Positions 128 through 57,336 of a stretch of DNA of 58,059 bases are shown piece after piece. Origin of the DNA: a virus (taxonomy: Duplodnaviria > Caudoviricetes). The stretch covers positions 1 to 58,059 of the IMG/VR virus record IMGVR_UViG_3300020591_000001. One strand, written 5' to 3'. The translations under genes and the position numbers were made by a program. The notes below the pieces were generated by a model. It saw only the letters and a program-made list of their open reading frames with translations, did not search any database and had not been told where the DNA came from. Positions within the stretch are counted from its first letter, which is position 1, and each line of letters begins with the position of its first letter.

Positions 128-676
128 GGCAAGTTCCAGCGCGCCTGGATCAAGGCGCACCCGAACGGGCTCGGCGGCGGCAGCTTCGGCACTGGGAGCC
201 CGGAGGTTTCGATCTCCGTGGTCTCGATCCCGGCGGGCAGTTCGCTGGCCGACGTGCTGGACAAGGTGTTCGGCGACGGCACGAGCGTGCCCGACGCGGC
301 TGACCTCATGAAGATCGTCCGCGAGATGCTGATGAACGATCCGAACTACCGTGCCGGGGTCGAGCGCGCTCGCGAGCTGAACCGGGAGGCGGGATACTGC
401 CTCGCCTGCGGCGGCGGCCTGGACGAGGATGGCGCGTGCGACGGAACCGGCGACGAGGACTGGGACGGCAGGCCGGAGACGGCCAAGGGCAACCCGGCGA
501 ACCGGGTTTCGGAAACCCTCACCCGTGAGCAGAAGATCGCCAAGGTGACGCAGCTCCGCGCCCGACTCGATCAGCTCCTGGCTGAGTACAAGGAGCTGCG
601 GGCCCAATCGCCCGAGGCGCAGGCGCAGCTCTCGGAGATCGTCGCCGAGATCGAAGCCCTGGAGAAGAGCCTGTGA
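2..676 (+). CDS. 3' part of a hypothetical protein starting at ATG 57850 (about 252 aa); Cys cluster and C-terminal coiled coil
   Basis: Frame is continuous from 57850 (MGFIGNVKEAVKDA...) through the overlap. Contains CLACGG...C and an RLDQLLAEYKELR coiled coil. Confidence 0.8.
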   Translation, partial: KAFFAEHNDNPPFDVAKRFFTSLGDDVDTSKPREVRAYMHTVGKFQRAWIKAHPNGLGGGSFGTGSPEVSISVVSIPAGSSLADVLDKVFGDGTSVPDAADLMKIVREMLMNDPNYRAGVERARELNREAGYCLACGGGLDEDGACDGTGDEDWDGRPETAKGNPANRVSETLTREQKIAKVTQLRARLDQLLAEYKELRAQSPEAQAQLSEIVAEIEALEKSL

Positions 677-1356
677 GCGCCGCGCCGAGCACCCCGAGCA
701 CGAGGCTTCGCGAGCGCTGGCCGGACAACCAGACCTTCCCCGGCGAGACGAAGGAAAACGCGCTTCGCAGGCGTGTGAAGATGCACGAGTTCCTGATGAC
801 GGGGGGCGTGCAGATCGGATTCGATCCGGCCACCAAGCGCGCGCTCTACTCCGGGCCGGTCGATCCGGCCACCACTCCCGAGTGCCCGTGGCACCCCAAC
901 CACCCCGGCCTCGCTCCGTGCAGCGCGTGGGAGGAGATCAAGGCCGGGCGCGGTTCGGGTGAGGTTGTCAGCCCCACTCTGGCCGAACTTCGCAATCGCA
1001 CCCCCGAGGAACTTCGGGACGCGCGCGAGCGCATCCGGGTGGCTCGCGACCAGGCTGAGGGCGTCTTCGAGCAGACGCGGAACGTGCCCGGCGAAGACCC
1101 GCGCACCGAGCGGCCCGCGACCAAGCCCGCGCCGCGGGTGAGCCTGACCAAGCCCAGCAACAAGATGGCCTGGTACGACAACGACACGGCCATGAAACAG
1201 GAGGCCGATCGCAGCCACGGCTACACCGACCAGCCGGACTTCGACCACCTGGAGGACGCCCGCGACACGGCGGTGGCGAGTCTCGGTGAAGAGGTTCCCG
1301 ACGAGATCATTATCGACGGCGACGAGGACGACGAGGAGGGGGGCGAGGGCATCTAA
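673..1356 (+). CDS. Hypothetical protein with acidic C-terminus
   Basis: 227-aa ORF, GTGA overlap with the upstream stop, phage-like codon use. Confidence 0.75.
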   Translation: MSAAPSTPSTRLRERWPDNQTFPGETKENALRRRVKMHEFLMTGGVQIGFDPATKRALYSGPVDPATTPECPWHPNHPGLAPCSAWEEIKAGRGSGEVVSPTLAELRNRTPEELRDARERIRVARDQAEGVFEQTRNVPGEDPRTERPATKPAPRVSLTKPSNKMAWYDNDTAMKQEADRSHGYTDQPDFDHLEDARDTAVASLGEEVPDEIIIDGDEDDEEGGEGI

Positions 1357-1568
1357 TGGAGTACGCAGGCTACGTCGTGGCGGTCGGGATCATCCTGGTC
1401 GCCGCGGCCCTCGCGATTCGCGACAAGATCACCGAGCACCGCGATCGCAAGCAACAGATCACCGCAATCACGGCGGTGCTGAATCTCGGGCTCTCTGACA
1501 ACACGACGCGCCTGGCGATCAAGGCGATCATCGAGAACCCGGTTTCGGAAACCAGGGCCCGCCGGTAA
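1356..1568 (+). CDS. Small membrane protein
   Basis: N-terminal hydrophobic helix YVVAVGIILVAAALAI; TAATG coupling. Confidence 0.7.
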   Translation: MEYAGYVVAVGIILVAAALAIRDKITEHRDRKQQITAITAVLNLGLSDNTTRLAIKAIIENPVSETRARR

Positions 1569-1623
1569 CCCCGGCATCGGGTAACATACCCATATATCCA
1601 GATATCTAGAAAGGACTAACACC

Positions 1624-2328
1624 ATGCGCAAGCAGGACATCATCATCACGACCCCCAAGAAGAGCACGATCTACGCCTACGGCACCGCCACCCCGACGAC
1701 GCCGGACGTTTTCGCCGACCTGGACAACTGGAAGGCCAAGACCTACGTCCCTGCCTACGTGCTGGACGTGAAGGAGTCGGGCCACGCCCTCATCCTGGTG
1801 GCGGAGAAGCACCCCGACTCCCGCTACGCCAAGGGTGACAACTACGGTCGCAAGCCGCAGGCCACCGTTCTCGACGCCCTCGACTACAGCCTGGCCGACT
1901 ACGAGGCGCGTCAGGAGGTTCTGCGCCGGTTCTCCCACTGGCCGCTGAACGACGAGCAGCGAGAGGAGCGCGAGGCGGCGCTGGCCGAGTTGAAGCCGCT
2001 CCCCGAGCGGTGGGAGGTCAAGATGGTGCGCACGAGCACGATCCGGATGCTCTGGGCCGAGTACCAGGAGCGGCTGGAGGCCGCGATCGGCGCTCGCGCG
2101 CTGAGGCGGGCGAAGGAGCAGGAGGAGCGTGACGCCAACCGCCTCCGCAAGACCATCGCGATCCAGCGCATCGCCGACTTGAAGATCGGCCTGAGCAAGA
2201 AGCAGGTCAAGGAGGCCGCAGACCAGCGCTGGGTGAACGACAAGACCATCGTTCTGCCGGTCGAGCTGTTCGAGAAGCTGCTGACGCTGGCCGAGGCGGC
2301 CCGCGAGGACGCGAAGGGGCAGGCGTGA
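1624..2328 (+). CDS. Hypothetical protein
   Basis: 234-aa ORF preceded by an AGAAAGGA RBS. Confidence 0.8.
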   Translation: MRKQDIIITTPKKSTIYAYGTATPTTPDVFADLDNWKAKTYVPAYVLDVKESGHALILVAEKHPDSRYAKGDNYGRKPQATVLDALDYSLADYEARQEVLRRFSHWPLNDEQREEREAALAELKPLPERWEVKMVRTSTIRMLWAEYQERLEAAIGARALRRAKEQEERDANRLRKTIAIQRIADLKIGLSKKQVKEAADQRWVNDKTIVLPVELFEKLLTLAEAAREDAKGQA

Positions 2329-2495: not shown

Positions 2496-2555
2496 GCGGA
2501 GCCGGGGTTTCGGAAACCTAGGCCATTGGCATGTGGCCACGTATCGAGGAGGTAA

Positions 2556-2780: not shown

Positions 2781-2886
2781 AACGGAGGAGCGCCTGAGAG
2801 GGGGGTGGTCGGGGGTTTCAGAAACCGTTACAACGCAGTAAGATAATCAAGCCACATATCCATAAAACAGAAAGGAAACAATCCAT

Positions 2887-4014
2887 ATGAAGAAGATCAT
2901 CAGCGCGAGCCTCACGGCTGCGCTCCTCGGTAGCGGGCTCGTGCTCGCCACCGCGCTGCCCGCGAGCGCAGCAACCGTGCCCGCAGAGTTCTGCGCGCCC
3001 GTCTACGAGACGCAGCCGAACCCGGACTACATCCCCGAGGTGCCGGAGGTCTCGCACGTCGAGACGGTCGTCATCACCCCGGAGGTGCCGGAGGTCAGCC
3101 ACACCGAGTACCTGTGGAAGAGCTGGAACTGGGACACGTTCAAGTTCGACTACCGATGGTCGGTGAGCAACCCCGGAACGTGGTGGGTGAAGACCGGCGA
3201 CACCAAGACGGTGATCGACGTGCCCTACCAGCCCGCCGTGACCGAGGAGGTCGTCGTCATCGACGTGCCCTACCAGCCTGCCGTCGGCGAGCCGACGATC
3301 CAGGTGCAGACGGGCGAGCACTGCGAGGTCTGGGTGACGTGGGAGACGACGTTCCTCGTTGACAACCCGAAGAACGACCAGGATGTCACCTGGCCGCAGT
3401 CGTTCATCGGGTTCGGCAAGATCGCGCCCGTCTGCGACCAGCAGGTTCAGCAGGATCGCTACGTCGGCAGCCGTGAGGTGATCGACGCGATCCTCGCCGA
3501 CGACAAGCTCGACGGCAATCCCCCAGAGGACTCGGGGGTCGTGAAGGAGTGGCTGCTCGTTGACGGTGGCGAGTGTGCGCCCGCGCCGTTCGAGCCGGAT
3601 GTCGTCGTCACCTACGGCGAGTTCGGCGGAGCCGAGCCCACCTGCGAGACGCCCGAAGTGACATGGACGCGCGAGCGCACCACCGTCACCACCCCGTACA
3701 TCGTGGTCGGCGACCCCCACAGCGGGTGGTCGCAGGTGCTCGACGTGGAGAACGCCGTCACCGTGACGGAGGCGGACGAGGAGACCCTCGTTGTCGAGCA
3801 CGACGGCGACTGCGAACTGACGCCGGTCGAGGAGCCGGAGGAGCCGGTCGAGGAGCCGGAGGAGCCGGTTTCCGAAACCGCACCCCCGAGCGACAAGCTG
3901 GCCTACACCGGAGCCAGTGGTGACAGCGGGCTGTTCACCGCCCTCGCGCTGAGCCTTCTGGTCGTCGGTGGCGGCTTCGTCGCCTTCGCGGCGCGGCGCA
4001 AGCAGCACCAGTAG
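2887..4014 (+). CDS. Secreted, sortase-anchored (LAxTG) cell-surface protein
   Basis: Sec signal (MKKII...ALPASA), Pro/Glu/Val repeats, C-terminal LAYTG followed by a hydrophobic helix and basic tail RRKQHQ. Confidence 0.85.
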   Translation: MKKIISASLTAALLGSGLVLATALPASAATVPAEFCAPVYETQPNPDYIPEVPEVSHVETVVITPEVPEVSHTEYLWKSWNWDTFKFDYRWSVSNPGTWWVKTGDTKTVIDVPYQPAVTEEVVVIDVPYQPAVGEPTIQVQTGEHCEVWVTWETTFLVDNPKNDQDVTWPQSFIGFGKIAPVCDQQVQQDRYVGSREVIDAILADDKLDGNPPEDSGVVKEWLLVDGGECAPAPFEPDVVVTYGEFGGAEPTCETPEVTWTRERTTVTTPYIVVGDPHSGWSQVLDVENAVTVTEADEETLVVEHDGDCELTPVEEPEEPVEEPEEPVSETAPPSDKLAYTGASGDSGLFTALALSLLVVGGGFVAFAARRKQHQ

Positions 4015-5420: not shown

Positions 5421-5488
5421 GGGTTTCCGAAACCACAACCTCATATACAGCAATACATACATTCCCCAGAAAGGGCTATACTTAGATC

Positions 5489-5961: not shown

Positions 5962-7634
5962 GAATCTTCTACCCCGGCCACCCCGACATCCCCGCAGGAC
6001 TCCAGCCCAACGGCAAGCCCTGGCCCGTGCTGCGGCTCGACCAGTTGGAGGCGATCTACAAGATCAAGCGCGCCGTCGCCGACGGTGTCAAGGTTCCAGG
6101 GATCAAGGAGCCCTATCACTCGGCTCTCGTGGGTGCGGGCATGGGCTCCGGCAAGACCGTTGTGTCCGTCGAGGTCATCCTGCACACCGCTCCCGAGCGG
6201 TGCCTGATCGTGGGCGTGCGCGACGCCTACAAGCAGTGGGCCGAGGCGCTGCGCGACCAGCAGCACGCGGGCAACCTCACCGGCCCTGGGGCGGCCTTCG
6301 GCCAGAAGCGAAAGCTGCATCGCATCGACAAGACCGCCGACGGGATGAAGAACCTGGCGCATCTGGTGAACGGCGATCCCGGCATCTACTACGTGGGCCT
6401 GGAGATGCTGCGAGCCCAGGACTGGGAGACGGTTTCGGAAACCGTCAAGACAGACCCCGCGCTGAAGGCGATCCTCGGCGACGACATCGAAGACGAGATC
6501 GAGATCAAGACCAAGCGCCAGCTCCGCACCTACGCGAATATGCCCGAGCTGGACTTGCTGATCTCCGACGAGAGCCACAAGCACTCCAACCAGAAGAGCG
6601 CATCCATCCAGACCATCCGCACTATCCCGACTCGCGCCAAGGTCGCCCTGAGCGGCACGTTCTTCGGCAACAAGTTCGAGAACGCCTGGTCTCTCACGGT
6701 GTGGCTGTGGGGCAAGGAGGTCGTCGGCAGTAAGGGCGCGTGGGAGGCGCGCTGGGCGATCAAGACGCCGGTCATGAGCAAGGACGGCAAGAAGCAACTC
6801 ACCTCTCGCAACGGGTTCCCGCTGTCGAAGATCACTGGCGAGCGTGAGCCTGGCGAGTTCGTAGAGTCGCTGCCGTGCTACGTCTTCATCGCGACACCGA
6901 TCGGAGACGTGCCAGAGCCGGAGATCGTCAAGATCGATCTGCATCCCGAGCAGCAGCGCCAGTACGAGGAGATGGAGAGCCAGAGCCTCACCTGGATTCC
7001 TTCAACCCGCGAGCGAGAAGAGCCGCTGGTCGCTGACCTGCCGATCACCCAGCGCATCCGGCTGCGCACGGCGGCACTCGGCGGCATGACGCTGGTGCCC
7101 GGCAAGGATGAGGACGACCCCGACTCGATCACCTTCGCCCCCGGAACGCCCTCCAGCACGCTGCGAGCCGCGTATGACGTGTTGCATCGCCCGAGCTGGG
7201 TAGGGAAGAAGGCGCTGATCCTGACGCACTCCAAGCCGTTCGCGATCGAGGCTGCACGCCGAATCGGGCAGAAGTACAGCGTCGCGTTGAAGACGGGCGA
7301 CACTAAGCCGAAGGACTGGGATGACCAGAAGGCGCGCTTCATGCTGCCGGTTTCGGAAACCAACTCGATCCAGTATCTCGTCGCCGTCATCAGCGCTGTC
7401 GGCACCGCAACCGACGGGCTCCAGGCGAACTGCGCGAAGGTGCTGTGGCTGAGCGAGGACGAGAACAACGTCAACAACATCCAGGGCTCCAATCGCATCT
7501 GGCGTGACGGAGTTGATCTGGACGAGTACGAGAGCGTGAAGATCGTCCAGCGCGGCACGATCGCTGAGGGCATCCTGACGAAGAACCGAGCGCACAAGGC
7601 ACATACGATGGACAGCGTAGCTGGACAGAGATAG
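5958..7634 (+). CDS. Superfamily 2 (SNF2-like) DNA helicase
   Basis: Walker A GMGSGKT, motif II DESH, motif III LSGT, C-terminal DGLQ...QGSNRIWR. Confidence 0.88.
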   Translation: MRIFYPGHPDIPAGLQPNGKPWPVLRLDQLEAIYKIKRAVADGVKVPGIKEPYHSALVGAGMGSGKTVVSVEVILHTAPERCLIVGVRDAYKQWAEALRDQQHAGNLTGPGAAFGQKRKLHRIDKTADGMKNLAHLVNGDPGIYYVGLEMLRAQDWETVSETVKTDPALKAILGDDIEDEIEIKTKRQLRTYANMPELDLLISDESHKHSNQKSASIQTIRTIPTRAKVALSGTFFGNKFENAWSLTVWLWGKEVVGSKGAWEARWAIKTPVMSKDGKKQLTSRNGFPLSKITGEREPGEFVESLPCYVFIATPIGDVPEPEIVKIDLHPEQQRQYEEMESQSLTWIPSTREREEPLVADLPITQRIRLRTAALGGMTLVPGKDEDDPDSITFAPGTPSSTLRAAYDVLHRPSWVGKKALILTHSKPFAIEAARRIGQKYSVALKTGDTKPKDWDDQKARFMLPVSETNSIQYLVAVISAVGTATDGLQANCAKVLWLSEDENNVNNIQGSNRIWRDGVDLDEYESVKIVQRGTIAEGILTKNRAHKAHTMDSVAGQR

Positions 7635-10210: not shown

Positions 10211-10413
10211 GCGCGAGCGAGAAGATCCGCACGCTCTCCGCGTGGATCGACAACTCATACCCCGAGGACATGATCGGCACCGAGCTCCACGCGCGCCGCC
10301 GTATCGACAAGCTCATGGAGGAGGTCCTCCGCACGATGCACGCCTACGAGGACGAGGCCACGCCGAGCCGGGCGGTTTCCGAAACCACCAGCGGGACGAG
10401 GCTGACCTTATGA
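10207..10413 (+). CDS. Small protein, possibly a truncated MazG-like NTP pyrophosphohydrolase
   Basis: RIDKLMEEV resembles the MazG KLxEEvGE helix, but the rest of the fold is absent. Confidence 0.45.
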   Translation: MSASEKIRTLSAWIDNSYPEDMIGTELHARRRIDKLMEEVLRTMHAYEDEATPSRAVSETTSGTRLTL

Positions 10414-10905: not shown

Positions 10906-11244
10906 ATGAAGTACGAAGTCAAGGACGAGCTGCCTCCGGGTCGCACGAACCGCGCCACGCCGATCGACTGGGCGGGCGCAAAGAAGGCGATGATCGACCA
11001 CGCGGGTTCGTGGGTGAAGATCGTGGAGAACGTCTCGGCCTCGACCCCGCAGCAACTCCGCCGCGGCGACAACAAGCTCTTCCGCGGTGAGGAGCTGGAG
11101 AGGTTCGAGTTCGCCACGCGCAAGCCCTTCGATCCGGAGGTCGCCTCCAAGTACAAGCCCAACTTCACCGACCTGTGGGGTCGCTACATCGACCCCAACG
11201 GGCCCGACAGCGTCGAGAAGCCCAAGCGATCCCGTCATGCTTGA
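10906..11244 (+). CDS. Hypothetical protein
   Basis: AAAGGAG RBS; 112 aa. Confidence 0.75.
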   Translation: MKYEVKDELPPGRTNRATPIDWAGAKKAMIDHAGSWVKIVENVSASTPQQLRRGDNKLFRGEELERFEFATRKPFDPEVASKYKPNFTDLWGRYIDPNGPDSVEKPKRSRHA

Positions 11245-11482
11245 TCCTGACGAGGTCGCCGACTACGAGGCGTGGAAGCTCGCCAAGCTCAACTCCTCCC
11301 AAGACCTCAGCGTGCGCGCCTACAACATGGAGATGGAGGCGAACGCGCTGAGCTGGGAGGAGGGCTGGCGAGCCCACGCGAACGGTGAGAGCTTCGACTC
11401 CAACCGTTTCCGGAAACCCGGCATGAGAGGAGAGCGGCGTGCCGCTACTGACCTTCCCGCCTCTCCCGGAACCACCACCTGA
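11237..11482 (+). CDS. Hypothetical protein
   Basis: MLDPDEVADYEAWKL...; overlaps the upstream stop. Confidence 0.6.
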   Translation: MLDPDEVADYEAWKLAKLNSSQDLSVRAYNMEMEANALSWEEGWRAHANGESFDSNRFRKPGMRGERRAATDLPASPGTTT

Positions 11483-11516
11483 TCCACCCCGTCAAACCAG
11501 AAAGCAGGAAGAACAC

Positions 11517-12405: not shown

Positions 12406-12738
12406 ATGGTGCGACGGCCAGATTCAATCCCCGACGCCCGTCGCGCCATGCGCGAAGGACTCCAGAGCCTCAACGCAACCGGCAAGACCACGGCCTGCCA
12501 GGATCGCCCCGTCCCCTACACGGAGGTCGAGCAGAGCCCGGACGATGCCGCCGCGCTGTGCGGGCGCGGTACCGATCAGCCTTGCCCGCTTCTGGAGGTC
12601 TGCGCAGCGTTCGGGTTCACCCAGTCGGTCTACGCCGACAAGATGGTCTACGGCGGCTACTCGTGGCGTCGGGGCCTTCCGCTGGTTTCGGAAACCAGCT
12701 ATCAGCAGCAGATCGCTACCGATCGCGCGAAGACTTGA
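12406..12738 (+). CDS. WhiB-family Fe-S transcription factor
   Basis: Four Cys (ACQ...ALC...CPLLEVC) and VYGG corresponding to the WhiB G(V/I)WGG turn. Confidence 0.7.
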   Translation: MVRRPDSIPDARRAMREGLQSLNATGKTTACQDRPVPYTEVEQSPDDAAALCGRGTDQPCPLLEVCAAFGFTQSVYADKMVYGGYSWRRGLPLVSETSYQQQIATDRAKT

Positions 12739-21200: not shown

Positions 21201-21221
21201 TGGTTTCTGGAAACCGAGCTG

Positions 21222-22792: not shown

Positions 22793-22872
22793 GAAACCGC
22801 AGTTTCCGGAAACGCAGCAGCCCCGGAGACACGCCTCCGAGGCTGCTGCGTGTGTGAGTGACGCGGCTCAGT

Positions 22873-35650: not shown

Positions 35651-35706
35651 GTCAGCATCCTACCGGCGTTTCGGGGCCACTTTCCGAGCCTCCGGTTTCC
35701 GGAAAC

Positions 35707-36908: not shown

Positions 36909-36975
36909 GTCCTCGTGTCCTTTCGATCTTTGTGGCTACGTGGGTTTCTGGAAACCCAGCATGAGTCTATACGCG

Positions 36976-41501: not shown

Positions 41502-41568
41502 GGCGACAGAAAGGACTAAGGCCGCCACTTGAAACTGTAACTGCTTGTTGCCTTGGTTTCCAGAAACC

Positions 41569-44172: not shown

Positions 44173-44247
44173 GTCTGGAACTCTAGGGCAAAGTTTCGGA
44201 TGCACAAAACGACAAGCCACGACGGCCTCGTGGGGTTTCTGAAACCC

Positions 44248-46049: not shown

Positions 46050-46162
46050 GAAGTGCAGACTACCTGAGCCGAATGTTGCCGCAAAGCGGATGGGCCGAAT
46101 CGACTACACCCCGAGGTGGTGCTGAAGTTGGGGGTAGGTTTCTGGAAACCCGCCCCGAGAGG

Positions 46163-46780: not shown

Positions 46781-48547
46781 TCACAGCGGGTAGTCGTCGT
46801 CCATCCGCGACGCCGCCAGCATCTCCCACGGGTCCATCAGCACGATGTCGCCCGGCTGGATCGCGCCCTCCGGAACGAAGAGGCTCGACGTGTCGATCGT
46901 GGCGTAGATGAGAGCGTCGAGGCGGTCGGGGGAGCCGTCCATCTCGGTGCGCATCTCATCCTTCGGCGTGATCTGGATCGCGCCCTGGCTCTTGGAGAAG
47001 CGGAAGGTGACGTTGAGGAGCTGGTCGGCAAGCTCGCGGTCGTCGTAGTCGAGGTCGATCGCACCCGTCGCCATGAGCGTGCGGAGCTGGTCGTGATTGT
47101 AGGCGCGGCTGTTCGCCCACCGCCGCGGATCGGGGCTGCGCTTCGCGCCGTCCACACCGATGACGACGTAGACCTTGTTCTTGAACTCGTCCAACTGCGT
47201 CAGCATGTCGTACACGCCGCCGCCGACGCCAGTGGCGTCGATGCGAACCTCGGCAGCTCCGATCGCCTGGGCGTGCTCGTGAATCTTGCGCGCCGACTCC
47301 ACAGTGTCGGTGCGCCCCCACGAGTCCAGCAGGCGGCACCGCCCGCCGCGGTTGATGTAGATGACGCTCTCGTCCGCGCCGAACCGCGCGATATCGACCC
47401 CCAGCACCGGCTTGACGCTCAGGTCTTCGGTGATCTCGTGCTCGTGTGCCTGGGTGATGACCGCCTGCGGGAAGAACGCGAAGTCGGCGTCGCCGGGGAA
47501 CTCCCCGAGAACCTTGCTCAGGCCCCGCGCGTCCCACTTGACCGGGCTGCGCTCCACCACGACATGCTGCTCGCCATCGACCCAGATGATCTCGCGACCA
47601 AGCTGCTCGGGGTCGCCCTCAACCAGCGGCTCCGTGACGACCTTGTCCACGCGCCGGTCGTAACGCCGATCGTCCGGGAAGTCGGGGTCGGGGACGATCT
47701 CGCCACCAGTAGCCCAGATGCGGGACTTGTGCGCCACCCAGCGCTTGCTCGTCAAGGCCCGAAGCAGCCGCTCCTCCATTCGGTCGCCCTCTTCGGTGCG
47801 CGGATACACCCGCTCGCCCGTGAAGACAGGAGTGTCGAACACGGAGATCGTGTGCAGGTTGAACTCCTTGGCCTTGTCCTTGTCGGTGAAGGAGAACTGG
47901 AACTCGGTGCCCGCGTTGTCCGGGTTGCCGATGCCGCCGAAGCGAGAATCCTCACCCGTCTGCACGGCCTCGGCGGCAGTGAACATCGCACGGCTCATAC
48001 CGCCCGCCTCATCGAACCAGACATACGTCATGCCGTTGGGCGACCGGAGGCCCTGGAACATCGACACCGCGTCCTGGTCCGGTGGCTTGCGCCCCGTCGC
48101 GAGCCAAATCTTGCCGTTCGGGGTTTCTGAAACCCAGCCCAGGTTCTCGTCAATGCGACCGGGCACGCGGAAGTCGCGGGGCGACAGGGTTTCGGAAACC
48201 CGCCCGTGGTACTCCTTCAGATACTTGAACGTCACCTTCTGGAGCTGAGGAATCGACGGCGCGGAGATGATTGAGACGGTGTCGCCTTCGGGCCAGACCG
48301 AGCCCGCCCACAGAATGAGCTGGCTCACCAGCGCCGACTTGCCGACACCGTTGCCCGACTTGACCAGCGTGCGCTCCTTCTTGGCGAAGAGCATGTCGTA
48401 GGCGATCTCGCGCATCTTCTCGTAGTTGCGCAGTCGCAGCACGTCCCACGCCCAGGCGTCGAAGTCGCGCTGGTAGATCGTGAGCTGGCTGCGACGACGC
48501 AGCTCCGCCATCGCCGCCTCGAAGACCGTTGGGTCGATCGTGCTCAT
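46781..48547 (-). CDS. terL: Terminase large subunit
   Basis: Walker A SGNGVGKS, Walker B WFDEA, IGNP; nuclease motifs LGVDIARFGAD, IDATGVGGG, SPDRLDA. Confidence 0.93.
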   Translation of the reverse strand: MSTIDPTVFEAAMAELRRRSQLTIYQRDFDAWAWDVLRLRNYEKMREIAYDMLFAKKERTLVKSGNGVGKSALVSQLILWAGSVWPEGDTVSIISAPSIPQLQKVTFKYLKEYHGRVSETLSPRDFRVPGRIDENLGWVSETPNGKIWLATGRKPPDQDAVSMFQGLRSPNGMTYVWFDEAGGMSRAMFTAAEAVQTGEDSRFGGIGNPDNAGTEFQFSFTDKDKAKEFNLHTISVFDTPVFTGERVYPRTEEGDRMEERLLRALTSKRWVAHKSRIWATGGEIVPDPDFPDDRRYDRRVDKVVTEPLVEGDPEQLGREIIWVDGEQHVVVERSPVKWDARGLSKVLGEFPGDADFAFFPQAVITQAHEHEITEDLSVKPVLGVDIARFGADESVIYINRGGRCRLLDSWGRTDTVESARKIHEHAQAIGAAEVRIDATGVGGGVYDMLTQLDEFKNKVYVVIGVDGAKRSPDPRRWANSRAYNHDQLRTLMATGAIDLDYDDRELADQLLNVTFRFSKSQGAIQITPKDEMRTEMDGSPDRLDALIYATIDTSSLFVPEGAIQPGDIVLMDPWEMLAASRMDDDYPL

Positions 48548-49072: not shown

Positions 49073-49193
49073 ACGGGGATGTTAGCAGAGCGGTTTCCAG
49101 AAACCGGGGAGAAAAAAATATAGGCAGATAGGGATTGGGTGGGGTCGATGGCGCTGAGGCAGATGTTTCGGTAGGAAGGCAAGAAAGTAGACC

Positions 49194-50787: not shown

Positions 50788-50873
50788 ACCCGATCGCCCC
50801 GTGGCGGGGTTGAGGATACGCTCCTCCCCCGCCGCGGGTGCCCCGGTTTCCGGAAACCGAACCGCCCCAGGAC

Positions 50874-51302: not shown

Positions 51303-51523
51303 GTGTTATCGCGTTGGCACCCCTAGCCCTCTATTCCACAAATCCACAAATCCATAAAGGCGAACCATCCGGCCTACCACTCCATCCCTCCCCATTCAGC
51401 TCACGGTTTCCGAAACCGCCGCTCCCCGTGAGCCCCGAAACAATCCACGACTCACCACCCCCGGCGCGTTCCAACGTCGGAACGCGCCACCAATCCACGC
51501 CCTATCCAGAAACGGAGTACGTC

Positions 51524-51874: not shown

Positions 51875-51925
51875 CGATCCAGCGCCCGCTGGGTCGGTTT
51901 CTAGAAACCAGAAACGGAGAACACC

Positions 51926-52764: not shown

Positions 52765-52865
52765 GACTTCGCCGAGATGGCGACGATCCCGGTTTCCAGA
52801 AACCCTCAACCCCAACAAACCCACAAACCCCAAATATCCAAGAAACTAGAGAGGACGGTAACAAT

Positions 52866-53669: not shown

Positions 53670-53910
53670 TGGTGTGATCAAGTAGCAGTACCGGATCGGC
53701 GGGGTTCGACTCCCCCGTCAGGCCCGTAGCAATCCAACTTCACCTAGGGTCGGGCGGCCCGAGGATGGTGGAGTTTCCAGAAACCGGGGGAGCCTGTGTT
53801 GCTCTCCGTTTCCGGGCTCTCCCGGTTTCGCTTCTGGGCTTCATAGCACACAAAGGGCTATGCTGATAAAAGCAGTAACGTACCTATCCATCAACGAAAG
53901 GAGCATCATC

Positions 53911-54480
53911 ATGGCTGCCAAGAGCACCAGCACCACCAACACCAAGAAGGCCGCACCCGAGCCGCAGTTCTCCGAGATCGCCGCGACCCTGGCCGCGGCG
54001 GAGCAGCAGGCGAAGGCGGCGTCCGCCGACGCGACCCAGGCCCGAGCCGCGCGTCAGCAGGCGGCGGTCGGAGCGATCCGGTCGGCGTTCGCGCAGGTCA
54101 TCGACGGCTCCATCGTCCGCAAGACCCTGCTGGACGCGGGAGTCCTGAAGGGCACGGTCTCCAAGATCGTGACCGTCATCGACGCGCTCCACGAGGGCAT
54201 CATCGCGCTGGACGACGTGAAGAGCCTCAACGGGGCGTACAGCTCCGTCCGTGCGGTGCGAGCTGTCGCCGCGGGAACCCACCCCGCCGCCGCGCCGATC
54301 CCCGCCCCGGTGCCCGTGGCACCCCCCACGACCCCGGACGAGGCCCTGGACATCATCCTGAACTCGATCCGCACCGCGGGCAGTGACGACGCGATCTTCA
54401 AAGCTGCGGGGGACTGGATCAGCAAGATCACCGACGCGATCTCGGCGATCACGAAGGCGGTCGGTTCGGAGGAGGAGTAA
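53911..54480 (+). CDS. Hypothetical protein, shared C-terminal domain family member 1
   Basis: GAAAGGAG RBS; ends TPDEALDIILNSIR...FKAAGDWISKITDAISAI. Confidence 0.8.
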   Translation: MAAKSTSTTNTKKAAPEPQFSEIAATLAAAEQQAKAASADATQARAARQQAAVGAIRSAFAQVIDGSIVRKTLLDAGVLKGTVSKIVTVIDALHEGIIALDDVKSLNGAYSSVRAVRAVAAGTHPAAAPIPAPVPVAPPTTPDEALDIILNSIRTAGSDDAIFKAAGDWISKITDAISAITKAVGSEEE

Positions 54481-54484
54481 CCAG

Positions 54485-56386
54485 ATGAGCACCGATCCGA
54501 TCATCCTGGCCGCGCAGGCCCGTGAAATCCTCGCGGGCCTACACCAGCGCAACGACACCGTCGTGCGCTTCAAGACCAACCTCTCCGGCCACGCCGAGGA
54601 CGCCACCGACGCGCTGGATGAGCGAGCGCCGGGGCACTTCCGCGCCGACAAGAAGATTCTGACCCTCAACCTCGACACGCTGCTGAACGGCAAGGGCATA
54701 CCCGACTCGCTGGCGACGATCGAGGACTGGCGCAAGTACCCGGTGCTGGCAGGGGTGGCGGCGCACGAGAGTGCCCACGCCCGTTTCAGCCTGTGGGACT
54801 CGGACGGGAACGAGATTCCCGAGACGATTCCGAACCCGGACTACGATCCGGCTGACCCCGAGTCAGGCCCGGAGGAGTTCAAGGTTTCCGAAACCGGTAA
54901 GCTCCTCGACATCGCGAAGCTTCTCGAAGAGCCCCGTGTCGAGCGCCTGGGGGTGAAGACCTTCACGAAGACCTGGCGGCGGGCGATGCAGTTCTCGGCG
55001 ACGCACCTCATTCTGGAGCGTGTTGACGAGGACGACGCCGACGGCAGGGACTCCCTCGACGCGGCGCTGAACCTCGTGATCCTGGTCGGGGGCCGACTCG
55101 CGGCGGGAACGCTGGGGGTCTCCTACAACTCCCGACAGGGCGTCAAGAAGGTGCTGGAGAGCGCGCAGAAGATCATCGAGACGGCGCTGTCCGAGAGGAT
55201 GGCAGCCGACCCGAAGTTCGACCCGTACCACGAGATCATGAAGATCGTCACGGATGCCGTGTTCGATGACAACCACACCGACGCAACGTCTCGCCTGGAG
55301 GCGGCGCGCCAAATCCTGAAGATCGTCCGCCCCGAGGGGGCGGATAACCCTGACGGGTCGGGCTCGGGCGACGGTGAGGGAGGCGAGGGCGCTGGCAAGC
55401 CGAGCCCTGGCGAAGAGGGGGGCGAGGGCGGCAAGTCCGAGGCGCAACAGGCGGCGGAGGCGGCAGCCGAAGCGGCGATGAACGCCATGAAGGACGCCAT
55501 GCGCGAAGCGATGGACAATCTCGTCACTGAGATGCGCAAGGAGGTCGTCTCCGAGGAGTCGCAGCCCGAGGCTGAGGGCGGCGGCGGATTCGGTGCGACG
55601 ATCTACGCCGACCCGCGCGCTCCGGGGCTCGACCACTACGAGCAGCCCAACGCCGACGACCGGGAACTGTACCGGCGTGCGGTGGATTGGATGGAGCGAC
55701 AGGTGCAGCCGACGGTGACCGAGGCCGAGATCGGCCAGTGGCACCCTGGCGGCGGCGCGCGACTGGATGTGCGATCCTACGTCCGCGACAACCTCGCCAA
55801 CCATCGAGTGAACCAGCGCACCGACTGGAACCGGGTTTCGGAAACCGTCAAGCCCGCCCCGCCCGTCAAGGTCGCGGTGATGCTGGACGGCTCCGGCTCG
55901 ATGCGCCCGAAGGCGCGGCTGAGCGCGTCGATCGGCTGGGCGGCGGCGAACGCCGCGGCGCAGCTTCCGGAGTCGCGCACGGTGTCCGTGGTGTACGGAG
56001 CAGCCGCAACGGTCACCCAGAAGCCGGGCGGCGACCCGATCCGTCAGGTGGCGGTATCCAAGACCAACGGGCCGTTCGAGAACTTCGGACATGCTGCCGA
56101 GCTGGTCGAGGAGGCGCTGTGGCTGGACGAGCCGACCGAGGAAGGGGAGCCGACCAACGTGCTCATCGTGATCGTCTCCGATCTGATGTACGGCGGATCG
56201 GCACCGTTCCGCGGCGAGCACCGCGCCCAGGGCGAGGTCTTCACGGAGGTCACGCGCGAGTGGGCCGACAAGGGCTACCAGATTCTCGTGGTGGGGGCTG
56301 ATCCCAAGCGCGAGCGGGAGCGCGCCACCTGGGGCGTGCGGATTGACGCCGTGCAACTCGTTACCCCCGACGAGCTGTTCCGGTAG
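54485..56386 (+). CDS. VWA-domain protein (CobT/NorD-like) with N-terminal HExxH domain
   Basis: AAHESAH...LEEPRVE; acidic Gly-rich linker; MIDAS motif MLDGSGSM; VIVSD. Confidence 0.85.
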   Translation: MSTDPIILAAQAREILAGLHQRNDTVVRFKTNLSGHAEDATDALDERAPGHFRADKKILTLNLDTLLNGKGIPDSLATIEDWRKYPVLAGVAAHESAHARFSLWDSDGNEIPETIPNPDYDPADPESGPEEFKVSETGKLLDIAKLLEEPRVERLGVKTFTKTWRRAMQFSATHLILERVDEDDADGRDSLDAALNLVILVGGRLAAGTLGVSYNSRQGVKKVLESAQKIIETALSERMAADPKFDPYHEIMKIVTDAVFDDNHTDATSRLEAARQILKIVRPEGADNPDGSGSGDGEGGEGAGKPSPGEEGGEGGKSEAQQAAEAAAEAAMNAMKDAMREAMDNLVTEMRKEVVSEESQPEAEGGGGFGATIYADPRAPGLDHYEQPNADDRELYRRAVDWMERQVQPTVTEAEIGQWHPGGGARLDVRSYVRDNLANHRVNQRTDWNRVSETVKPAPPVKVAVMLDGSGSMRPKARLSASIGWAAANAAAQLPESRTVSVVYGAAATVTQKPGGDPIRQVAVSKTNGPFENFGHAAELVEEALWLDEPTEEGEPTNVLIVIVSDLMYGGSAPFRGEHRAQGEVFTEVTREWADKGYQILVVGADPKRERERATWGVRIDAVQLVTPDELFR

Positions 56387-56395
56387 GCGGGTGTC

Positions 56396-56812
56396 ATGAA
56401 TCGCCACCGGGTGAAGCGCCACCGGCACGCCTGGACGGGAGGCTCTGACATCTGCGAGTGCGGCGCTCGCCGTGACGCACGTCAGAGCCTCCCGAGCAAC
56501 CCCGTCGTGACCCAGGAGACCCTGCGGAATCTGGTCGCGTCAAGCTCTGCGAGCACACTGGCGATGAGCGACTTCAGCGAGGCGATCCAACGAATCGGGG
56601 CCAGCCTGGGTGACGGGGCTAGTTTCCGAAACCCCGCCCCAGTCAGGACTCGTGAGCCGACGCCAGAGGAGGCGCTTCAGGTGATCTTCGACTACCTGGA
56701 GCGGGTCGCCGCCGAGCGCCCGGACGCCCTGGTCGAGACCGCGGGGAAGTGGATCAGCCAGGTCACGAACGGCATCGCTGATATACTTAGAAAGCACGAA
56801 GACGATATCTAG
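56396..56812 (+). CDS. Hypothetical protein, shared C-terminal domain family member 2
   Basis: N-terminal H.H.W...CECG; ends TPEEALQVIFDYLER...VETAGKWISQVTNGIADI. Confidence 0.75.
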   Translation: MNRHRVKRHRHAWTGGSDICECGARRDARQSLPSNPVVTQETLRNLVASSSASTLAMSDFSEAIQRIGASLGDGASFRNPAPVRTREPTPEEALQVIFDYLERVAAERPDALVETAGKWISQVTNGIADILRKHEDDI

Positions 56813-56841
56813 ACAAGACATATACAGAAAGGGGGCAGGAC

Positions 56842-57336
56842 ATGAACCCCGAGGAGAATGCCTACCCATACCCCAGCGTTCAGTTCGGTGCCAGGCGAGT
56901 GCCGGACCCGAAAGACCCTGACTACTCTGTCGTGTTGAGCATTGCGCCCGTCCACGAGCAGATCACCTTCGCGAGCCGCGACCGGCTTACGCAGGTCGTC
57001 GTGCCGTGGGAAGACCTACCCAGGCATCAGGATCGGATGACGGTTCGAGAGTGGGACGGGATTGTGAACATGCTGAAGCGGCACGTCGGGCAGCACGGCA
57101 GCACCACTAGCACCTTCTCGGTTTCGGAAACCTCTCGCGGCTCGCTGCGGAACTCGGCGCAGGAAGTGCTCAACGCACTGGCTCAGTTGGGGGCGTCCAG
57201 TGACGACGCGCTAGCGATCATCCTGTCCGAAATCACAGCCTCCGACGATCCGTTCAAGACCGGCGGAGACTGGATCGCGAGATTCACGAACGCCGTCAAC
57301 GCCATCATCAAGGAGGCCGAGGCGAACGATGGCTGA
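56842..57336 (+). CDS. Hypothetical protein, shared C-terminal domain family member 3
   Basis: Ends SSDDALAIILSEITASDDPFKTGGDWIARFTNAVNAI. Confidence 0.75.
   Translation: MNPEENAYPYPSVQFGARRVPDPKDPDYSVVLSIAPVHEQITFASRDRLTQVVVPWEDLPRHQDRMTVREWDGIVNMLKRHVGQHGSTTSTFSVSETSRGSLRNSAQEVLNALAQLGASSDDALAIILSEITASDDPFKTGGDWIARFTNAVNAIIKEAEANDG

What the first reader, a model, noticed from the sequence alone, without database searches (positions are those of the whole stretch)
505..57132. About 43 copies of a palindrome, GGTTTC-N(1-2)-GAAACC, tile the whole genome, including coding sequence in several frames
Seen: the site occurs about once per 1.3 kb in two classes. About 26 have a 1-nt centre (mostly GGTTTCGGAAACC, dominant in the plus-strand arm). 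About 17 have a 2-nt centre that is always pyrimidine-purine (CG, CA, TG, TA; dominant in the virion arm and in intergenic regions). Inside genes it is read as VSET (helicase twice, DUF2800, primase twice, terminase twice, VWA twice), VSGN (tail genes, TMP), GFGN, FRK, FLK and FLET, so the constraint is on the DNA and not the protein. A rough estimate at about 67% GC predicts far fewer than one chance copy. Intergenic copies lie near inferred promoters or terminators (2814, 5422, 21202, 35694, 36943, 41555, 44234, 46137, 49092, 51896, 52791). Known: the half-sites match those of parS (GTTTC-ACGT-GAAAC) with a shorter spacer. Cluster A mycobacteriophage stoperators are a precedent for genome-wide operators, but they are asymmetric and come with a repressor. 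Inference: a dimeric protein marks the genome for silencing, condensation or segregation, protection from host defence, or packaging. No repressor is recognisable. Candidate binders are 15188..15991, 53911..54480, 10906..11244, terS, or a host factor.
Basis: partly seen in the sequence, partly recalled or inferred. Interest (0 to 1): 0.9.

Follow-up and report, generated by a model that had tools for sequence, protein, structure and literature searches.

The report
Evenly spaced palindrome lattice in phage genome
This uncultured actinobacterial phage has written one short DNA palindrome into its genome about every 1.4 kb, even changing its own proteins to do so, most likely as docking sites for a DNA-binding protein that has not been identified.

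Summary
The window is a complete 58,059-bp phage record. It holds 41 copies of GTTTC-N(1-2)-GAAAC: 24 with a 1-nt centre and 17 with a 2-nt centre. Thirty-two of them also carry the outer G/C. Dinucleotide shuffles give 0 copies. Synonymous-codon shuffles give a mean of 0.36 against 24 copies inside genes.

- The sites are nearly all-or-none and are spaced more evenly than chance.
- They are enriched between genes, and the 2-nt centre is always pyrimidine-purine.
- The same word tiles at least ten other viral contigs from two phage lineages. By sequence clustering those lineages share only five gene families (replication/recombination and MoxR/VWA).
- New sites arise by point substitution, including synonymous changes, and not by insertion.
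- None of 401 sampled actinobacterial genomes holds more than 2 copies.

My best reading is an array of docking sites on DNA for a sequence-specific protein that acts on the whole genome and may be linked to replication. A weak candidate is the helix-turn-helix protein at 15188-15991, encoded next to the primase. The reader protein and the function remain unproven.

This scan had already noted the same word on another phage genome (e1-6240632). The closest published analogue is the 17-bp repeat of Cluster O mycobacteriophages, whose function is also unknown.

The parts
506..516 (.). N1 site (centre G), in CDS 2-676(+), read VSET
1542..1552 (.). N1 site (G), in CDS 1356-1568(+), VSET
2507..2517 (.). 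N1 site (G), intergenic, 12 nt after a stop
2815..2825 (.). N1 site (A), intergenic, 62 nt before the start at 2887
3868..3878 (.). N1 site (C), in CDS 2887-4014(+), VSET
5423..5433 (.). N1 site (C), intergenic, 3 nt after the stop at 5420
6432..6442 (.). N1 site (G), in SNF2-like helicase 5958-7634(+), VSET
7350..7360 (.). N1 site (G), in SNF2-like helicase, VSET
10375..10385 (.). N1 site (C), in CDS 10162-10413(+), VSET
11406..11417 (.). N2 site (CG), between genes 10906-11244 and 11439-12221; only a doubtful 55-aa ORF overlaps it
12685..12695 (.). N1 site (G), in CDS 12406-12738(+), VSET
14168..14178 (.). N1 site (G), in DUF2800 nuclease 12947-14236(+), VSET
15471..15481 (.). N1 site (G), in the candidate HTH gene, read GFGN; kept in relative G003
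16966..16976 (.). N1 site (G), in the primase, VSET; absent in G003 (VTGS there, same length)
18283..18293 (.). N1 site (G), in the primase, VSET; kept in G003
18961..18971 (.). N1 site (G), in CDS 18845-19321(+), read RFRK; outer flank G/T
20186..20196 (.). N1 site (T), in CDS 19518-20342(+), read EFLKL; kept in G003
21203..21214 (.). N2 site (TG), intergenic where the two arms converge, beside a long hairpin
22802..22813 (.). N2 site (CG), intergenic, 10 nt before the start at 22792(-)
25723..25734 (.). N2 site (CG), in CDS 24925-26970(-), read TVSGN; kept in G003
27327..27338 (.). N2 site, in tail gene 26973-30578(-), VSGN; G003 has ASGN with other codons
30676..30687 (.). N2 site (CG), in CDS 30580-31386(-), VSGN; absent in G003
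31508..31519 (.). N2 site (CG), in the 1420-aa tape-measure-like gene 31388-35650(-), VSGN; kept in G003
35695..35706 (.). N2 site (CG), intergenic just after a stop; the matching site in G003 is N1
36944..36955 (.). N2 site (TG on +), intergenic
39221..39232 (.). N2 site (TG on +), intergenic, 29 nt from tRNA-Asn 39261-39336(-)
41556..41567 (.). N2 site (CA on +), intergenic, next to hairpin 41574-41597
44235..44245 (.). N1 site (T on +), intergenic just after a stop; the matching site in G003 is N2
46138..46149 (.). N2 site (TG on +), intergenic
48123..48133 (.). N1 site, in large terminase 46781-48547(-), VSET; kept in G003 with another centre base
48189..48199 (.). N1 site, in large terminase, VSET; G003 has VNEE there
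49093..49104 (.). N2 site (CA on +), intergenic, 21 nt before the first minus-arm gene
50846..50857 (.). N2 site (CG), in the long non-coding early region
51406..51416 (.). N1 site (C), in the non-coding early region
51897..51908 (.). N2 site (TA), 18 nt before the start at 51926
52792..52803 (.). N2 site (CA), intergenic before the MoxR-like gene
53773..53784 (.). N2 site (CA), intergenic; outer flank A/C
54884..54894 (.). N1 site (C), in VWA gene 54383-56386(+), VSET
55835..55845 (.). N1 site (G), in the VWA gene, VSET
56622..56632 (.). N1 site (C), in CDS 56396-56812(+), read SFRN
57121..57131 (.). N1 site (G), in CDS 56842-57336(+), VSET
15188..15991 (+). Weak candidate reader: 267-aa protein with one long helix, then a helix-turn-helix, then an alpha/beta domain. 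Its stop overlaps the start of the primase gene.
   Evidence: AlphaFold2 model pLDDT 66.5. Residues 65-124 best match the DeoR DNA-binding domain, Z 7.2, rmsd 3.4, 56 aligned. Self-pairing score 0.57 against a best control of 0.01. No Pfam or PHROG family.
15991..18507 (+). Primase-polymerase (Prim-Pol) fused to a DUF3987 region. Prim-Pol is one of five protein families shared with the second motif-bearing lineage.

Best explanation
The palindrome is a lattice of docking sites on the phage DNA for one sequence-specific protein that reads GTTTC(Y) half-sites in head-to-head pairs. Selection keeps one intact site roughly every 0.3-3 kb along the whole chromosome. Sites sit in the gaps between genes where possible and are otherwise written into genes, at the cost of amino-acid and codon changes. 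The array therefore serves a process that runs along the entire DNA molecule and not the control of single promoters.

My leading guess for that process is recruitment or retention of the phage replication machinery (primase-helicase) at Okazaki-fragment-like intervals, or bridging and compaction of the replicating genome.

Shown: the array exists, selection acts at the DNA level, the spacing is even, the array occurs in two lineages, and it is absent from sampled host-class genomes. Inferred: that a protein binds it, which protein, and what for.
For: - Not chance: 41 sites against 0 in shuffles. In genes, 24 sites against a mean of 0.36 in synonymous-codon shuffles.
- All-or-none: only 3 one-mismatch variants beside the 41 perfect sites.
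- Strict centre rule: YR in 17 of 17 sites here and in 266 of 266 sites in lineage B.
- Even spacing: CV 0.33-0.60. No more than 1 of 20,000 placements stratified by coding versus intergenic was as even, in each of 6 genomes. Long gaps were rarer than in the simulations in 5 of 6 genomes and short gaps in 4 of 6 (P<0.01); both were marginal in this window (0.055, 0.079).
- Intergenic enrichment: 17 of 41 sites lie in the 17% of the genome that is non-coding, p=2e-4.
- Sites are made in place by substitution. An example is GAT GTT TCT GGA AAC in this window against GAC GCC TCG GGC AAC in G003. Six of 10 coding sites of the window in genes shared with G003 are kept in G003, at 47-73% protein identity.
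- The same word occurs at 1 per 1.1-1.4 kb in the lineage-B records G001, G002, G411, G412, G413 and G414, and at 1 per 2.7 kb in G003. The reversed control word gave 0.
- The two lineages share only the Prim-Pol, SSB, DUF2800, VWA and MoxR families.
- Both lineages encode a long-helix-plus-HTH protein directly upstream of the Prim-Pol gene. Both models have the same top structural match, DeoR DNA-binding domain 7bhy_A, at Z 7.2 and Z 5.7.
- The window's protein is predicted to pair with itself: score 0.57, best of 3 controls 0.01. That mark was reached by 20 of 30 solved pairs and 1 of 23 single chains. Run agreement was at least 98% and partner pLDDT at least 79.
- The bare hairpin is too weak to act alone: -4 kcal/mol with G/C flanks and -0.1 kcal/mol for the bare core as RNA.
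Against: - No binding has been shown and no reader identified.
- The two HTH proteins show no detectable sequence relation (hhalign probability 0.2). Their structural matches lie below the level the tool itself calls safe (Z under 8), and the models are of low confidence (pLDDT 66.5 and 63.8).
- The predicted self-pairing is antiparallel. That would put the two HTH units at opposite ends of a long helix and not side by side on one 12-bp site.
- A rigid dimer should not accept both 1-nt and 2-nt centres, yet the two forms replace each other at matching sites.
- Two lineages use the identical word without a detectably shared reader gene, which fits a host-encoded reader better.
- Phages with the nearest primase (WaterT, 50 kb read), terminase (CN1A, whole record for the motif, 29.7 kb for other palindromes) or MoxR (GMA2 and DSL-LC01, about 41 kb each) have neither the motif nor any other palindrome lattice.
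- Intergenic sites show an unexplained polarity relative to transcription: centre CA 65 against TG 26 on the sense strand.
Confidence: 0.45

Rival explanations
1. A host protein reads the word. Two unrelated phage lineages of the same or related actinobacterial hosts have each converged on the recognition site of one host DNA-binding protein and use it to recruit that protein along their DNA.
For: The two lineages use the identical 10 fixed bases and the same YR rule, yet by sequence clustering they share only five protein families, none of which is a known sequence-specific duplex-DNA binder. The candidate HTH proteins are not detectably related. Contigs of both lineages carry the same sample number in their record names. 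Lineage A also carries one perfect host-type parS core per genome, so it does use host DNA signals.
Against: No sampled host-class genome uses the word. Of 401 genomes, 66 have any copy and the maximum is 2. Five further genomes match their reversed-word controls. A host protein with no chromosomal targets is odd. Lineage B never uses the 1-nt centre (0 against 266 N2 sites) whereas lineage A uses it in 31 of 62 sites. That suggests different readers.
Confidence: 0.2
2. The array is a genome-wide set of operators for a global repressor, working like the stoperators of Cluster A mycobacteriophages. It would silence both arms during a non-integrated carrier or plasmid-like state.
For: Published precedent: stoperators are compared with dispersed repeats in the discussion passages of PMC4351075 that I read. 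Sites are enriched between genes. Lineage A has a parS core, and other notes of this scan report LexA boxes, which I did not test. No integrase was found among the ORFs I scanned.
Against: No repressor is recognisable. The sites are symmetric, so they cannot be oriented with transcription as stoperators are; only a weak centre polarity exists. Even spacing and sites deep inside long genes are not needed for silencing promoters. Lineage B has the lattice but no parS, and it has a separate, ordinary-looking 18-bp operator-type palindrome.
Confidence: 0.12
3. The word is a priming or primosome-assembly signal read directly on unwound single strands, as a small hairpin, by the Prim-Pol primase. 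This would give programmed starts for lagging-strand synthesis on either strand.
For: Prim-Pol is one of the few shared families. The spacing of 1.1-1.4 kb and the absence of gaps above about 4.2 kb match the usual size of bacterial Okazaki fragments (established knowledge). A palindrome puts the same signal on both strands. A stem with a 3- or 4-nt loop explains why 1-nt and 2-nt centres are interchangeable.
Against: The full-length primase is closer to that of WaterT, which has no lattice, than to the lineage-B Prim-Pol. The hairpin is very weak without the G/C flanks, which lineage B often lacks. To my knowledge no primase uses a 12-nt signal genome-wide. The YR rule for the centre is not explained.
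Confidence: 0.1
4. The word is the substrate of a site-specific enzyme (nickase, endonuclease or base-modifying enzyme) encoded by the phage or the host, and not a passive docking site.
For: All-or-none conservation of a contiguous 12-bp palindrome with abutting half-sites 6 bp apart is typical of enzymes that wrap the DNA (inference). A flexible YR step lies at the dyad.
Against: No nuclease other than the DUF2800 family protein and an RNase_T-type exonuclease, and no methyltransferase, was found in the plus arm. An enzyme target need not be enriched or evenly spaced. Only assembled contigs were available, so nicks, ends and modifications could not be seen.
Confidence: 0.08
5. The word acts in RNA as a small hairpin that punctuates the long operons as a processing, stability or termination signal.
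For: Sites are enriched between genes. The centre shows polarity relative to transcription in intergenic sites, 65 CA against 26 TG. A few sites adjoin real hairpins.
Against: More than half of the sites lie inside genes. The stem is weak, -4.3 to -0.1 kcal/mol. There are no compensatory or G-U variants; the sequence itself is fixed. Terminator-like sites are not enriched, 12 against 10.1 expected. No Rfam family covers any site.
Confidence: 0.04

Closest known systems
17-bp dyad repeat of Cluster O mycobacteriophages (TGTTCGG-N3-CCGAACA; Cresawn et al. 2015, PMC4351075; abstract and passages read)
   Same: The centre is variable. The copies are spread through the genome, many intergenic and about a third inside genes. 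They show no useful orientation and are not tied to promoters. The authors predict a dimeric binder. The function is unknown.
   Different: The word and geometry differ (7+3+7 against 5+1/2+5). The repeats are sparser and denser towards one genome end, and they occur in one closely related cluster only. Here the spacing is demonstrably even, more than half of the sites are in genes, two spacings are interchangeable, and two lineages that share only five protein families by sequence clustering use the same word.
Stoperators of Cluster A mycobacteriophages (as described in the discussion passages of PMC4351075; other details recalled)
   Same: Dozens of copies of a short word across a phage genome act beyond promoters.
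   Different: Stoperators are asymmetric, are oriented with transcription, and come with a known immunity repressor in temperate phages. Here the sites are symmetric and no repressor is known.
18-bp inverted repeat of Cluster EG Microbacterium phages (GATCAACC-NN-GGTTGATC; Jacobs-Sera et al. 2020, PMC7302621, and PMC9224216; passages read)
   Same: Two short inverted arms are separated by 2 bp and are conserved across diverged genomes. These are actinophages of about 62 kb. The capsid protein of lineage B is about 34% identical to that of 61-62 kb Microbacterium phages; that these belong to Cluster EG is my inference from their size.
   Different: There are only 8-10 copies, confined to one genome end. 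Nearly all (one exception noted) lie 14-22 bp upstream of start codons, and none is described inside genes.
parS/ParB-type centromeres and their dispersed relatives, such as KorB operators on plasmid RK2 and dispersed centromere sites of phage N15 (recalled, not from a call)
   Same: These are perfect short palindromes that are strictly conserved. The arm pentamers are identical to the parS core present once in this window. In the RK2 and N15 cases the sites are dispersed around a replicon of similar size.
   Different: The spacer is 1-2 bp and not 4 bp, so the half-sites are 2-3 bp closer. No ParB-type protein or ParB box lies in any called ORF. There are 41 sites and not a handful.
Chromosome-organising site families of bacteria (SlmA, MatP, Noc, RacA sites) and DNA uptake sequences (recalled, not from a call)
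   Same: These are 12-14-bp palindromes, or short words, present in tens to thousands of copies. They serve a process that acts on the whole DNA molecule. Uptake sequences are also written into genes at about 1 per kb and are evenly spaced.
   Different: Those belong to cellular chromosomes and have known readers.

Membership tests
Cluster O-type dispersed dyad repeats of actinophages (a descriptive class of unknown function) | Invariant inverted arms around a short variable centre, more than 30 copies per genome | tested here: met
   41 perfect copies and 3 one-mismatch variants. The definition comes from PMC4351075.
Cluster O-type dispersed dyad repeats of actinophages (a descriptive class of unknown function) | Sites both between and inside genes, not tied to promoters, without orientation | tested here: met
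   17 intergenic and 24 in called ORFs. There were 0 promoter-like sites in 19.5 kb. Only a weak centre polarity exists.
Cluster O-type dispersed dyad repeats of actinophages (a descriptive class of unknown function) | Same word, or phage related to Cluster O | tested here: not met
   The word is different. The nearest terminase and primase relatives are Clavibacter, Arthrobacter and Microbacterium phages.
Stoperator/repressor system (Cluster A) | Asymmetric site oriented with transcription | tested here: not met
   The arms are perfectly symmetric in 41 of 41 sites. The centre is oriented only 65:26 in intergenic sites.
Stoperator/repressor system (Cluster A) | Cognate immunity repressor and temperate life style | tested here: inconclusive
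   No repressor or integrase family appeared among the ORFs scanned. Most proteins have no family at all.
parS/ParB partition site | 16-bp palindrome with a 4-bp centre between the GTTTC and GAAAC pentamers | tested here: not met
   The lattice sites have 1- or 2-bp centres. Only the site at 4936 has the 4-bp centre.
parS/ParB partition site | A ParB-family protein (CTPase box plus HTH) encoded with it | tested here: inconclusive
   There was no ParBc hit in Pfam on the plus-arm ORFs and no ParB-box pattern in a called ORF. Host ParB could not be tested.
Intrinsic terminator or structured RNA element | Stable G+C-rich stem followed by a T run, or covariation that keeps a structure | tested here: not met
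   Folding energy is -4.3 to -0.1 kcal/mol. The sequence is fixed and does not covary. The terminator scan gave 12 against 10.1 expected. The only Rfam hit is a tRNA.
Miniature mobile element, or its footprint | Present as an insertion relative to orthologues that lack it | tested here: not met
   In 4 of 4 coding sites that G000 has and G003 lacks, the orthologue has the same length there and differs by substitutions.
Host genome-wide word (Chi-, KOPS- or uptake-sequence-like) | Frequent in the host chromosome | tested here: not met
   In those searched there were 0-2 copies per genome in 401 genomes of the class of a Streptomyces genome. The true host is unknown.

The most novel reading that the evidence does not exclude
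A sequence-addressed phage chromosome. Two actinophage lineages that share only five protein families by sequence clustering have each written the same 12-bp address every 1.1-1.4 kb (more sparsely, about 2.7 kb, in G003), recoding their own proteins to do so. A small HTH protein encoded with the Prim-Pol primase, or a shared host protein, would load the replication machinery or bridge the DNA at fixed intervals. That would amount to programmed, site-specific organisation of replication along a whole viral genome, a mechanism not described for any phage.
Probability: 0.15. Interest if true: 0.85.

Novelty: new variant of a known kind. Interest (0 to 1): 0.66.

Why it matters
Dispersed palindromes in actinophages have been described for a decade without a function. 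This case is the cleanest so far, for four reasons.
- The word is nearly invariant.
- Its even spacing can be shown statistically.
- Its cost to the proteins is visible codon by codon.
- Two phage lineages that share only five protein families use it.

Together these say that something reads the whole DNA molecule at a length scale of about 1 kb. It would also supply a portable 12-bp tag and binder pair.

Tried and rejected
Chance or composition: rejected.

Mobile element or footprint: rejected.

Stand-alone hairpin, terminator or promoter element: rejected. I looked by eye for a fixed -35/-10 geometry downstream of intergenic sites and found none that was consistent.

Host genome-wide signal: not found in those searched.

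Link to one shared gene family. Phages with the nearest primase, terminase or MoxR were checked and had no lattice: WaterT over 50 of 61 kb; CN1A over the whole record for the motif and 29.7 kb for other palindromes; GMA2 and DSL-LC01 over about 41 kb each.

Search for a shared small reader gene. phmmer at E<=1 and six-frame tblastn at E<=0.05 between the lineages found only known shared families plus short hits at E 0.05-1e-4 that I take for noise. An all-against-all hhalign was given up as too slow after one timing run. hhalign of the two HTH proteins gave probability 0.2.

Candidate protein 15188-15991:
- The ESM Atlas gave no usable hit.
- Foldseek against the PDB gave nothing with E below 0.1. 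About 15 of 44 rows shown were LAGLIDADG nucleases at E 0.2-1.0, which I do not count as evidence.
- The profile of the lineage-B protein against PDB sequences gave only E above 1.

Population test. Among the rows shown, five changes lie within 15 nt of the core at 50846-50857 and none lies inside it; one hits the outer C at 50858. This is an anecdote only. No read ends, nicks or RNA ends could be seen.

Other ideas. A ParB-box pattern search found nothing in called ORFs. A crude pattern search for a RuvC-like resolvase found one only in lineage A, so I dropped the idea of a resolvase site.

Literature. The exact words (six variants) do not occur in a phage context in the held library; 8 unrelated papers hold them. 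A wider word search gave only the Cluster O paper as relevant. Supplementary figures of PMC7302621 (S10, S13) could not be seen beyond their legends.

Full report
WHAT IS THERE

The window is a whole IMG/VR virus record of 58,059 bp whose ends repeat 127 nt. G+C is 65%. Genes run on the plus strand from about 49.1 kb, through the record's end and start, to 21.1 kb. They run on the minus strand from 21.2 to 49.07 kb; these are the virion genes, including the large terminase at 46781-48547.

- With 6-bp arms there are 21 copies with a 1-nt centre and 11 with a 2-nt centre. Each gave 0 in 100 dinucleotide-preserving shuffles.
- With 5-bp arms (GTTTC..GAAAC) there are 24 and 17, 41 in all.
- No other spacer from 0 to 7 occurs, except one 4-nt spacer at 4936, which is a perfect parS core.
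- The everted arrangement never occurs.
- Single half-sites outside palindromes number about 10-12 of each, from 42 and 44 in all. By my arithmetic from the base composition that is about the chance level. Only the paired form is selected.

SELECTION IS ON THE NUCLEIC ACID

Shuffling synonymous codons within each called gene keeps the proteins and the codon usage. It leaves a mean of 0.36 sites (maximum 2 in 200 shuffles) where 24 are observed. Three relatives gave the same result. All 15 VSET tetrapeptides in the window's called genes are encoded by the motif.

Codon alignments with the relative G003 (47-73% protein identity) show how sites arise.
- A tail gene reads GAT GTT TCT GGA AAC (DVSGN) here and GAC GCC TCG GGC AAC (DASGN) there.
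- The primase reads KVSETD here and AVTGSY there.
- The terminase reads RVSETL here and RVNEEL there.

The orthologues have the same length at these places. So sites are made by point substitutions, some synonymous and some changing residues, and not by insertion. This rules out a mobile element.

Six of the 10 G000 coding sites in genes shared with G003 are kept at the same codons in G003, and 6 of 7 the other way round. Six intergenic sites lie in the same gene gaps in both genomes. Two of these I checked by alignment.

PROPERTIES OF THE ARRAY

- The sites are almost all-or-none. Beside the 41 perfect copies there are only 3 one-mismatch variants.
- The 2-nt centre is pyrimidine-purine in 17 of 17 sites here and in 266 of 266 sites of the second lineage. 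Lineage A as a whole has 1 exception in 31. Each half can therefore be read as GTTTCY, with the two halves abutting.
- The outer G/C is kept in 32 of 41 sites here, but in only about half of the arms in the second lineage.
- Spacing is more even than chance. The coefficient of variation is 0.60 here and 0.33-0.50 in five relatives. No more than 1 of 20,000 random placements was as even in any of the six genomes, even when the simulated sites kept the observed split between coding and non-coding DNA. Long gaps were rarer than in the simulations in 5 of the 6 genomes and short gaps in 4 of 6 (P<0.01); in this window both were only marginal (P=0.055 and 0.079).
- Sites prefer the gaps between genes: 17 of 41 lie in the 17% of the genome outside my called ORFs, p=2e-4. 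The relatives gave p from 1e-3 to 2e-7. The distance to the next start codon varies from 2 nt to several hundred.
- The 1-nt and 2-nt forms are interchangeable. The site after the stop codon upstream of the tape-measure-like gene is N2 here and N1 in G003. The site at 44235 is N1 here and N2 in G003.

RELATIVES

Scanning the viral collection with two exact 14-mers brought in mostly single chance hits. It also found contigs on which the word recurs about once per 1.1-1.4 kb. Whole-record counts of GTTTC-N(1-2)-GAAAC are below; the reversed control word gave 0 in every one.

| Record | Length | Copies |
|---|---|---|
| G001 | 49 kb | 37 |
| G002 | 61 kb | 53 |
| G412 | 62 kb | 50 |
| G414 | 64 kb | 48 |
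| G413 | 41 kb | 29 |
| G411 | 15.6 kb | 12 |
| G003 | 37.5 kb | 14 |
| G004 | 13 kb | 9 |
| G005 | 12 kb | 5 |

By protein comparison all of these fall into two lineages. Lineage A holds the window, G003 and three smaller contigs. Lineage B holds the rest; its members are only 48-73% identical to one another.

The two lineages share just five protein clusters: Prim-Pol, an Enc34-type single-strand-binding protein, a DUF2800 nuclease, a MoxR-type AAA+ ATPase and a VWA protein. Both also have an SNF2-type helicase by Pfam. Lineage B uses only the 2-nt centre (266 sites, no N1). Lineage A uses both (31 and 31).

Both lineages are actinophages by their nearest cultured relatives. These are Clavibacter, Arthrobacter and Microbacterium phages for A, and Microbacterium phages of 61-62 kb, at 34% capsid identity, for B.

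WHO READS IT

Host chromosome. In those searched, 401 genomes drawn evenly from the class of a Streptomyces genome hold 0-2 copies of GTTTCYRGAAAC each, and 66 have any. Five further genomes equal their reversed-word controls. A Chi-, KOPS- or uptake-sequence-like host word is therefore unlikely. A host protein with few sites of its own is not excluded. The identity of the word in two lineages that lack a shared binder gene speaks for such a protein. The different tolerance for the 1-nt centre speaks against it.

Shared phage genes. None of them predicts the lattice.
- WaterT has the nearest full-length primase at 28% identity. I read 50 of its 61 kb.
- CN1A has the nearest terminase.
- GMA2 and DSL-LC01 carry MoxR. 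I read about 41 kb of each.

All four have neither the word nor any other over-represented palindrome. No ParB box occurs in a called ORF.

The HTH candidate. In both lineages the gene directly upstream of, and overlapping, the Prim-Pol gene encodes a protein with one long helix followed by a helix-turn-helix.
- For the window's protein (15188-15991), the AlphaFold2 model has pLDDT 66.5. Residues 65-124 best match the DeoR DNA-binding domain bound to its operator (7bhy_A; Z 7.2, rmsd 3.4, 56 aligned). SorC, Lrp/AsnC and resolvase-type HTH domains follow.
- For the lineage-B protein (215 aa), the model has pLDDT 63.8 and the same chain ranks first (Z 5.7, rmsd 2.1, 48 aligned).
- These Z values are below the level the tool calls safe, and hhalign sees no relation between the two proteins (probability 0.2).
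- The window's protein is predicted to pair with itself. The score is 0.57 against a best of 3 controls of 0.01. That mark was reached by 20 of 30 solved pairs and 1 of 23 single chains. The runs agree in at least 98% of contacts, and partner pLDDT is at least 79. The model supports self-pairing but does not show it.
- The pairing is antiparallel, which would place the two HTH units far apart.

WHAT IT IS NOT

- The hairpin that the word could form is weak: -4.3 to -3.8 kcal/mol as RNA with G/C flanks, and -0.1 kcal/mol for the bare core.
- Terminator-like sites are not enriched (12 against 10.1 expected), and no promoter-like site was found in 19.5 kb.
- Rfam finds only a tRNA.
- The arms never show compensating or wobble changes.
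- The resemblance to parS is limited to the pentamers. The half-sites are 2-3 bp closer together than in parS.

MECHANISM

I commit to a DNA-level docking-site lattice for a sequence-specific protein that serves a process running along the whole molecule. The length scale fits Okazaki-fragment-sized replication units or a bridging or compacting protein: one site per 1.1-1.4 kb (about 2.7 kb in G003), largest gaps 2.5-4.2 kb in the six genomes tested (5.8 kb in G003), and few sites closer than 0.3 kb. Placement is independent of the direction of transcription. The gene families common to both lineages are mostly for replication and recombination, the other two being MoxR and VWA. An HTH gene is coupled to the primase gene in both. 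Together these make a replication-linked role my leading guess, but no step of it is shown. The rivals are a host reader, stoperator-like silencing, direct priming signals, an enzyme substrate and an RNA hairpin. They are listed with their tests in the Rival explanations section.

One observation remains unexplained. In intergenic sites of seven genomes the centre reads CA on the sense strand 65 times and TG 26 times (p=5e-5, or p=5e-4 against the local dinucleotide background).

KNOWN AND NEW

The exact word is not in the held literature in a phage context. The kind is known.
- Cluster O mycobacteriophages carry 34 invariant copies of a 17-bp dyad repeat, about a third of them in genes, of unknown function (PMC4351075).
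- Cluster EG Microbacterium phages carry 8-10 copies of an 18-bp inverted repeat upstream of genes (PMC7302621 and PMC9224216).
- This scan had already noted the same 12-bp word on another phage genome of about 62 kb with 50 copies (note e1-6240632). Record G412 has that size and copy number.

New here:
- the statistical proof of even spacing;
- the codon-level view of how sites are made;
- the interchangeable 1-nt and 2-nt centres in lineage A;
- use of one word by two lineages that share only five protein families;
- absence of the word from sampled host-class genomes;
- an HTH gene coupled to the primase gene in both lineages as a testable candidate reader.

LIMITS

- The gene calls are my own, from third-position G+C and ORF length, and some small genes may be wrong.
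- The host is unknown.
- The structural models are of low confidence.
- No experimental or read-level data bear on binding, nicks or modification.

Noticed in passing
window 4936-4949; L128:7594-7607 (G003): One perfect 14-bp parS core (the same pentamers with a 4-nt centre) occurs in the window, and one occurs, at a different place, in the relative G003. None occurs in any lineage-B genome. Two independent single copies are far above chance.
   Followed up: partly
G002 and G412 (loci L124-L126, L371-L373): Lineage B carries a second, ordinary-looking palindrome, GGTGCTA-N4-TAGCACC. With 5-6-bp arms it has 13-19 copies per genome. Those I saw lie in intergenic DNA of the early region. It is probably a conventional operator set, separate from the lattice.
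   Followed up: no
intergenic lattice sites of G000, G003, G001, G002, G412, G413 and G414: The asymmetric centre is oriented relative to transcription. CA stands on the sense strand 65 times against TG 26 times (p=5e-5), more than the local dinucleotide bias (1.12) explains.
   Followed up: partly
window 39261-39336 (-): A tRNA-Asn (anticodon GTT) lies among the virion genes, 29 nt from the lattice site at 39221.
   Followed up: no
window 5013-5420 (+); L376:14414-14677 (G414): A Cys-rich protein of 135 aa, whose ORF starts just downstream of the parS core, has a 46%-identical homologue (92 aa, E=5e-17) in one lineage-B genome only. This suggests gene exchange between the two lineages.
   Followed up: no
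L144:5759-5772 and L180:1105-1118 (two Streptomyces genomes): The full 14-mer with CG centre sits in a conserved stretch between rplL and rpoB in L144, and in a near-identical flanking context in L180. It may be a leader hairpin or operator. It is unrelated to the phage as far as I can tell.
   Followed up: partly
window 52866-53669 and 54383-56386: The MoxR-type ATPase has relatives in only 21 of 50,697 phage records, all from Gordonia, Microbacterium or Actinomycetia phages of 103-195 kb. By eye, the partner VWA protein has an HExxH motif near its N-terminus.
   Followed up: partly
window 53860-54480, 56396-56812, 56842-57336: Three small proteins end in a similar two-helix segment (GDWI/GKWI..I..I.K, then an acidic tail) behind unrelated N-terminal parts, as another note of this scan says. 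I saw this by eye only.
   Followed up: no
window 12406-12738 and 19518-20342: By eye, the first looks like a WhiB-type Cys pattern, with no Pfam hit at E<=0.01. The second looks like a RuvC-type resolvase (an IDPG-like start motif and a D-A-x-D-A-like end motif; PHROG 1981, function unknown). Both labels are recalled and untested.
   Followed up: no
L384 (Actinomycetia phage DSL-LC01, 41 kb read): This unrelated MoxR-bearing phage has 15-18 copies of a long direct repeat (two 10-12-mers, one ending in an RBS-like GAAAGGA). It is probably a promoter-plus-RBS cassette.
   Followed up: no
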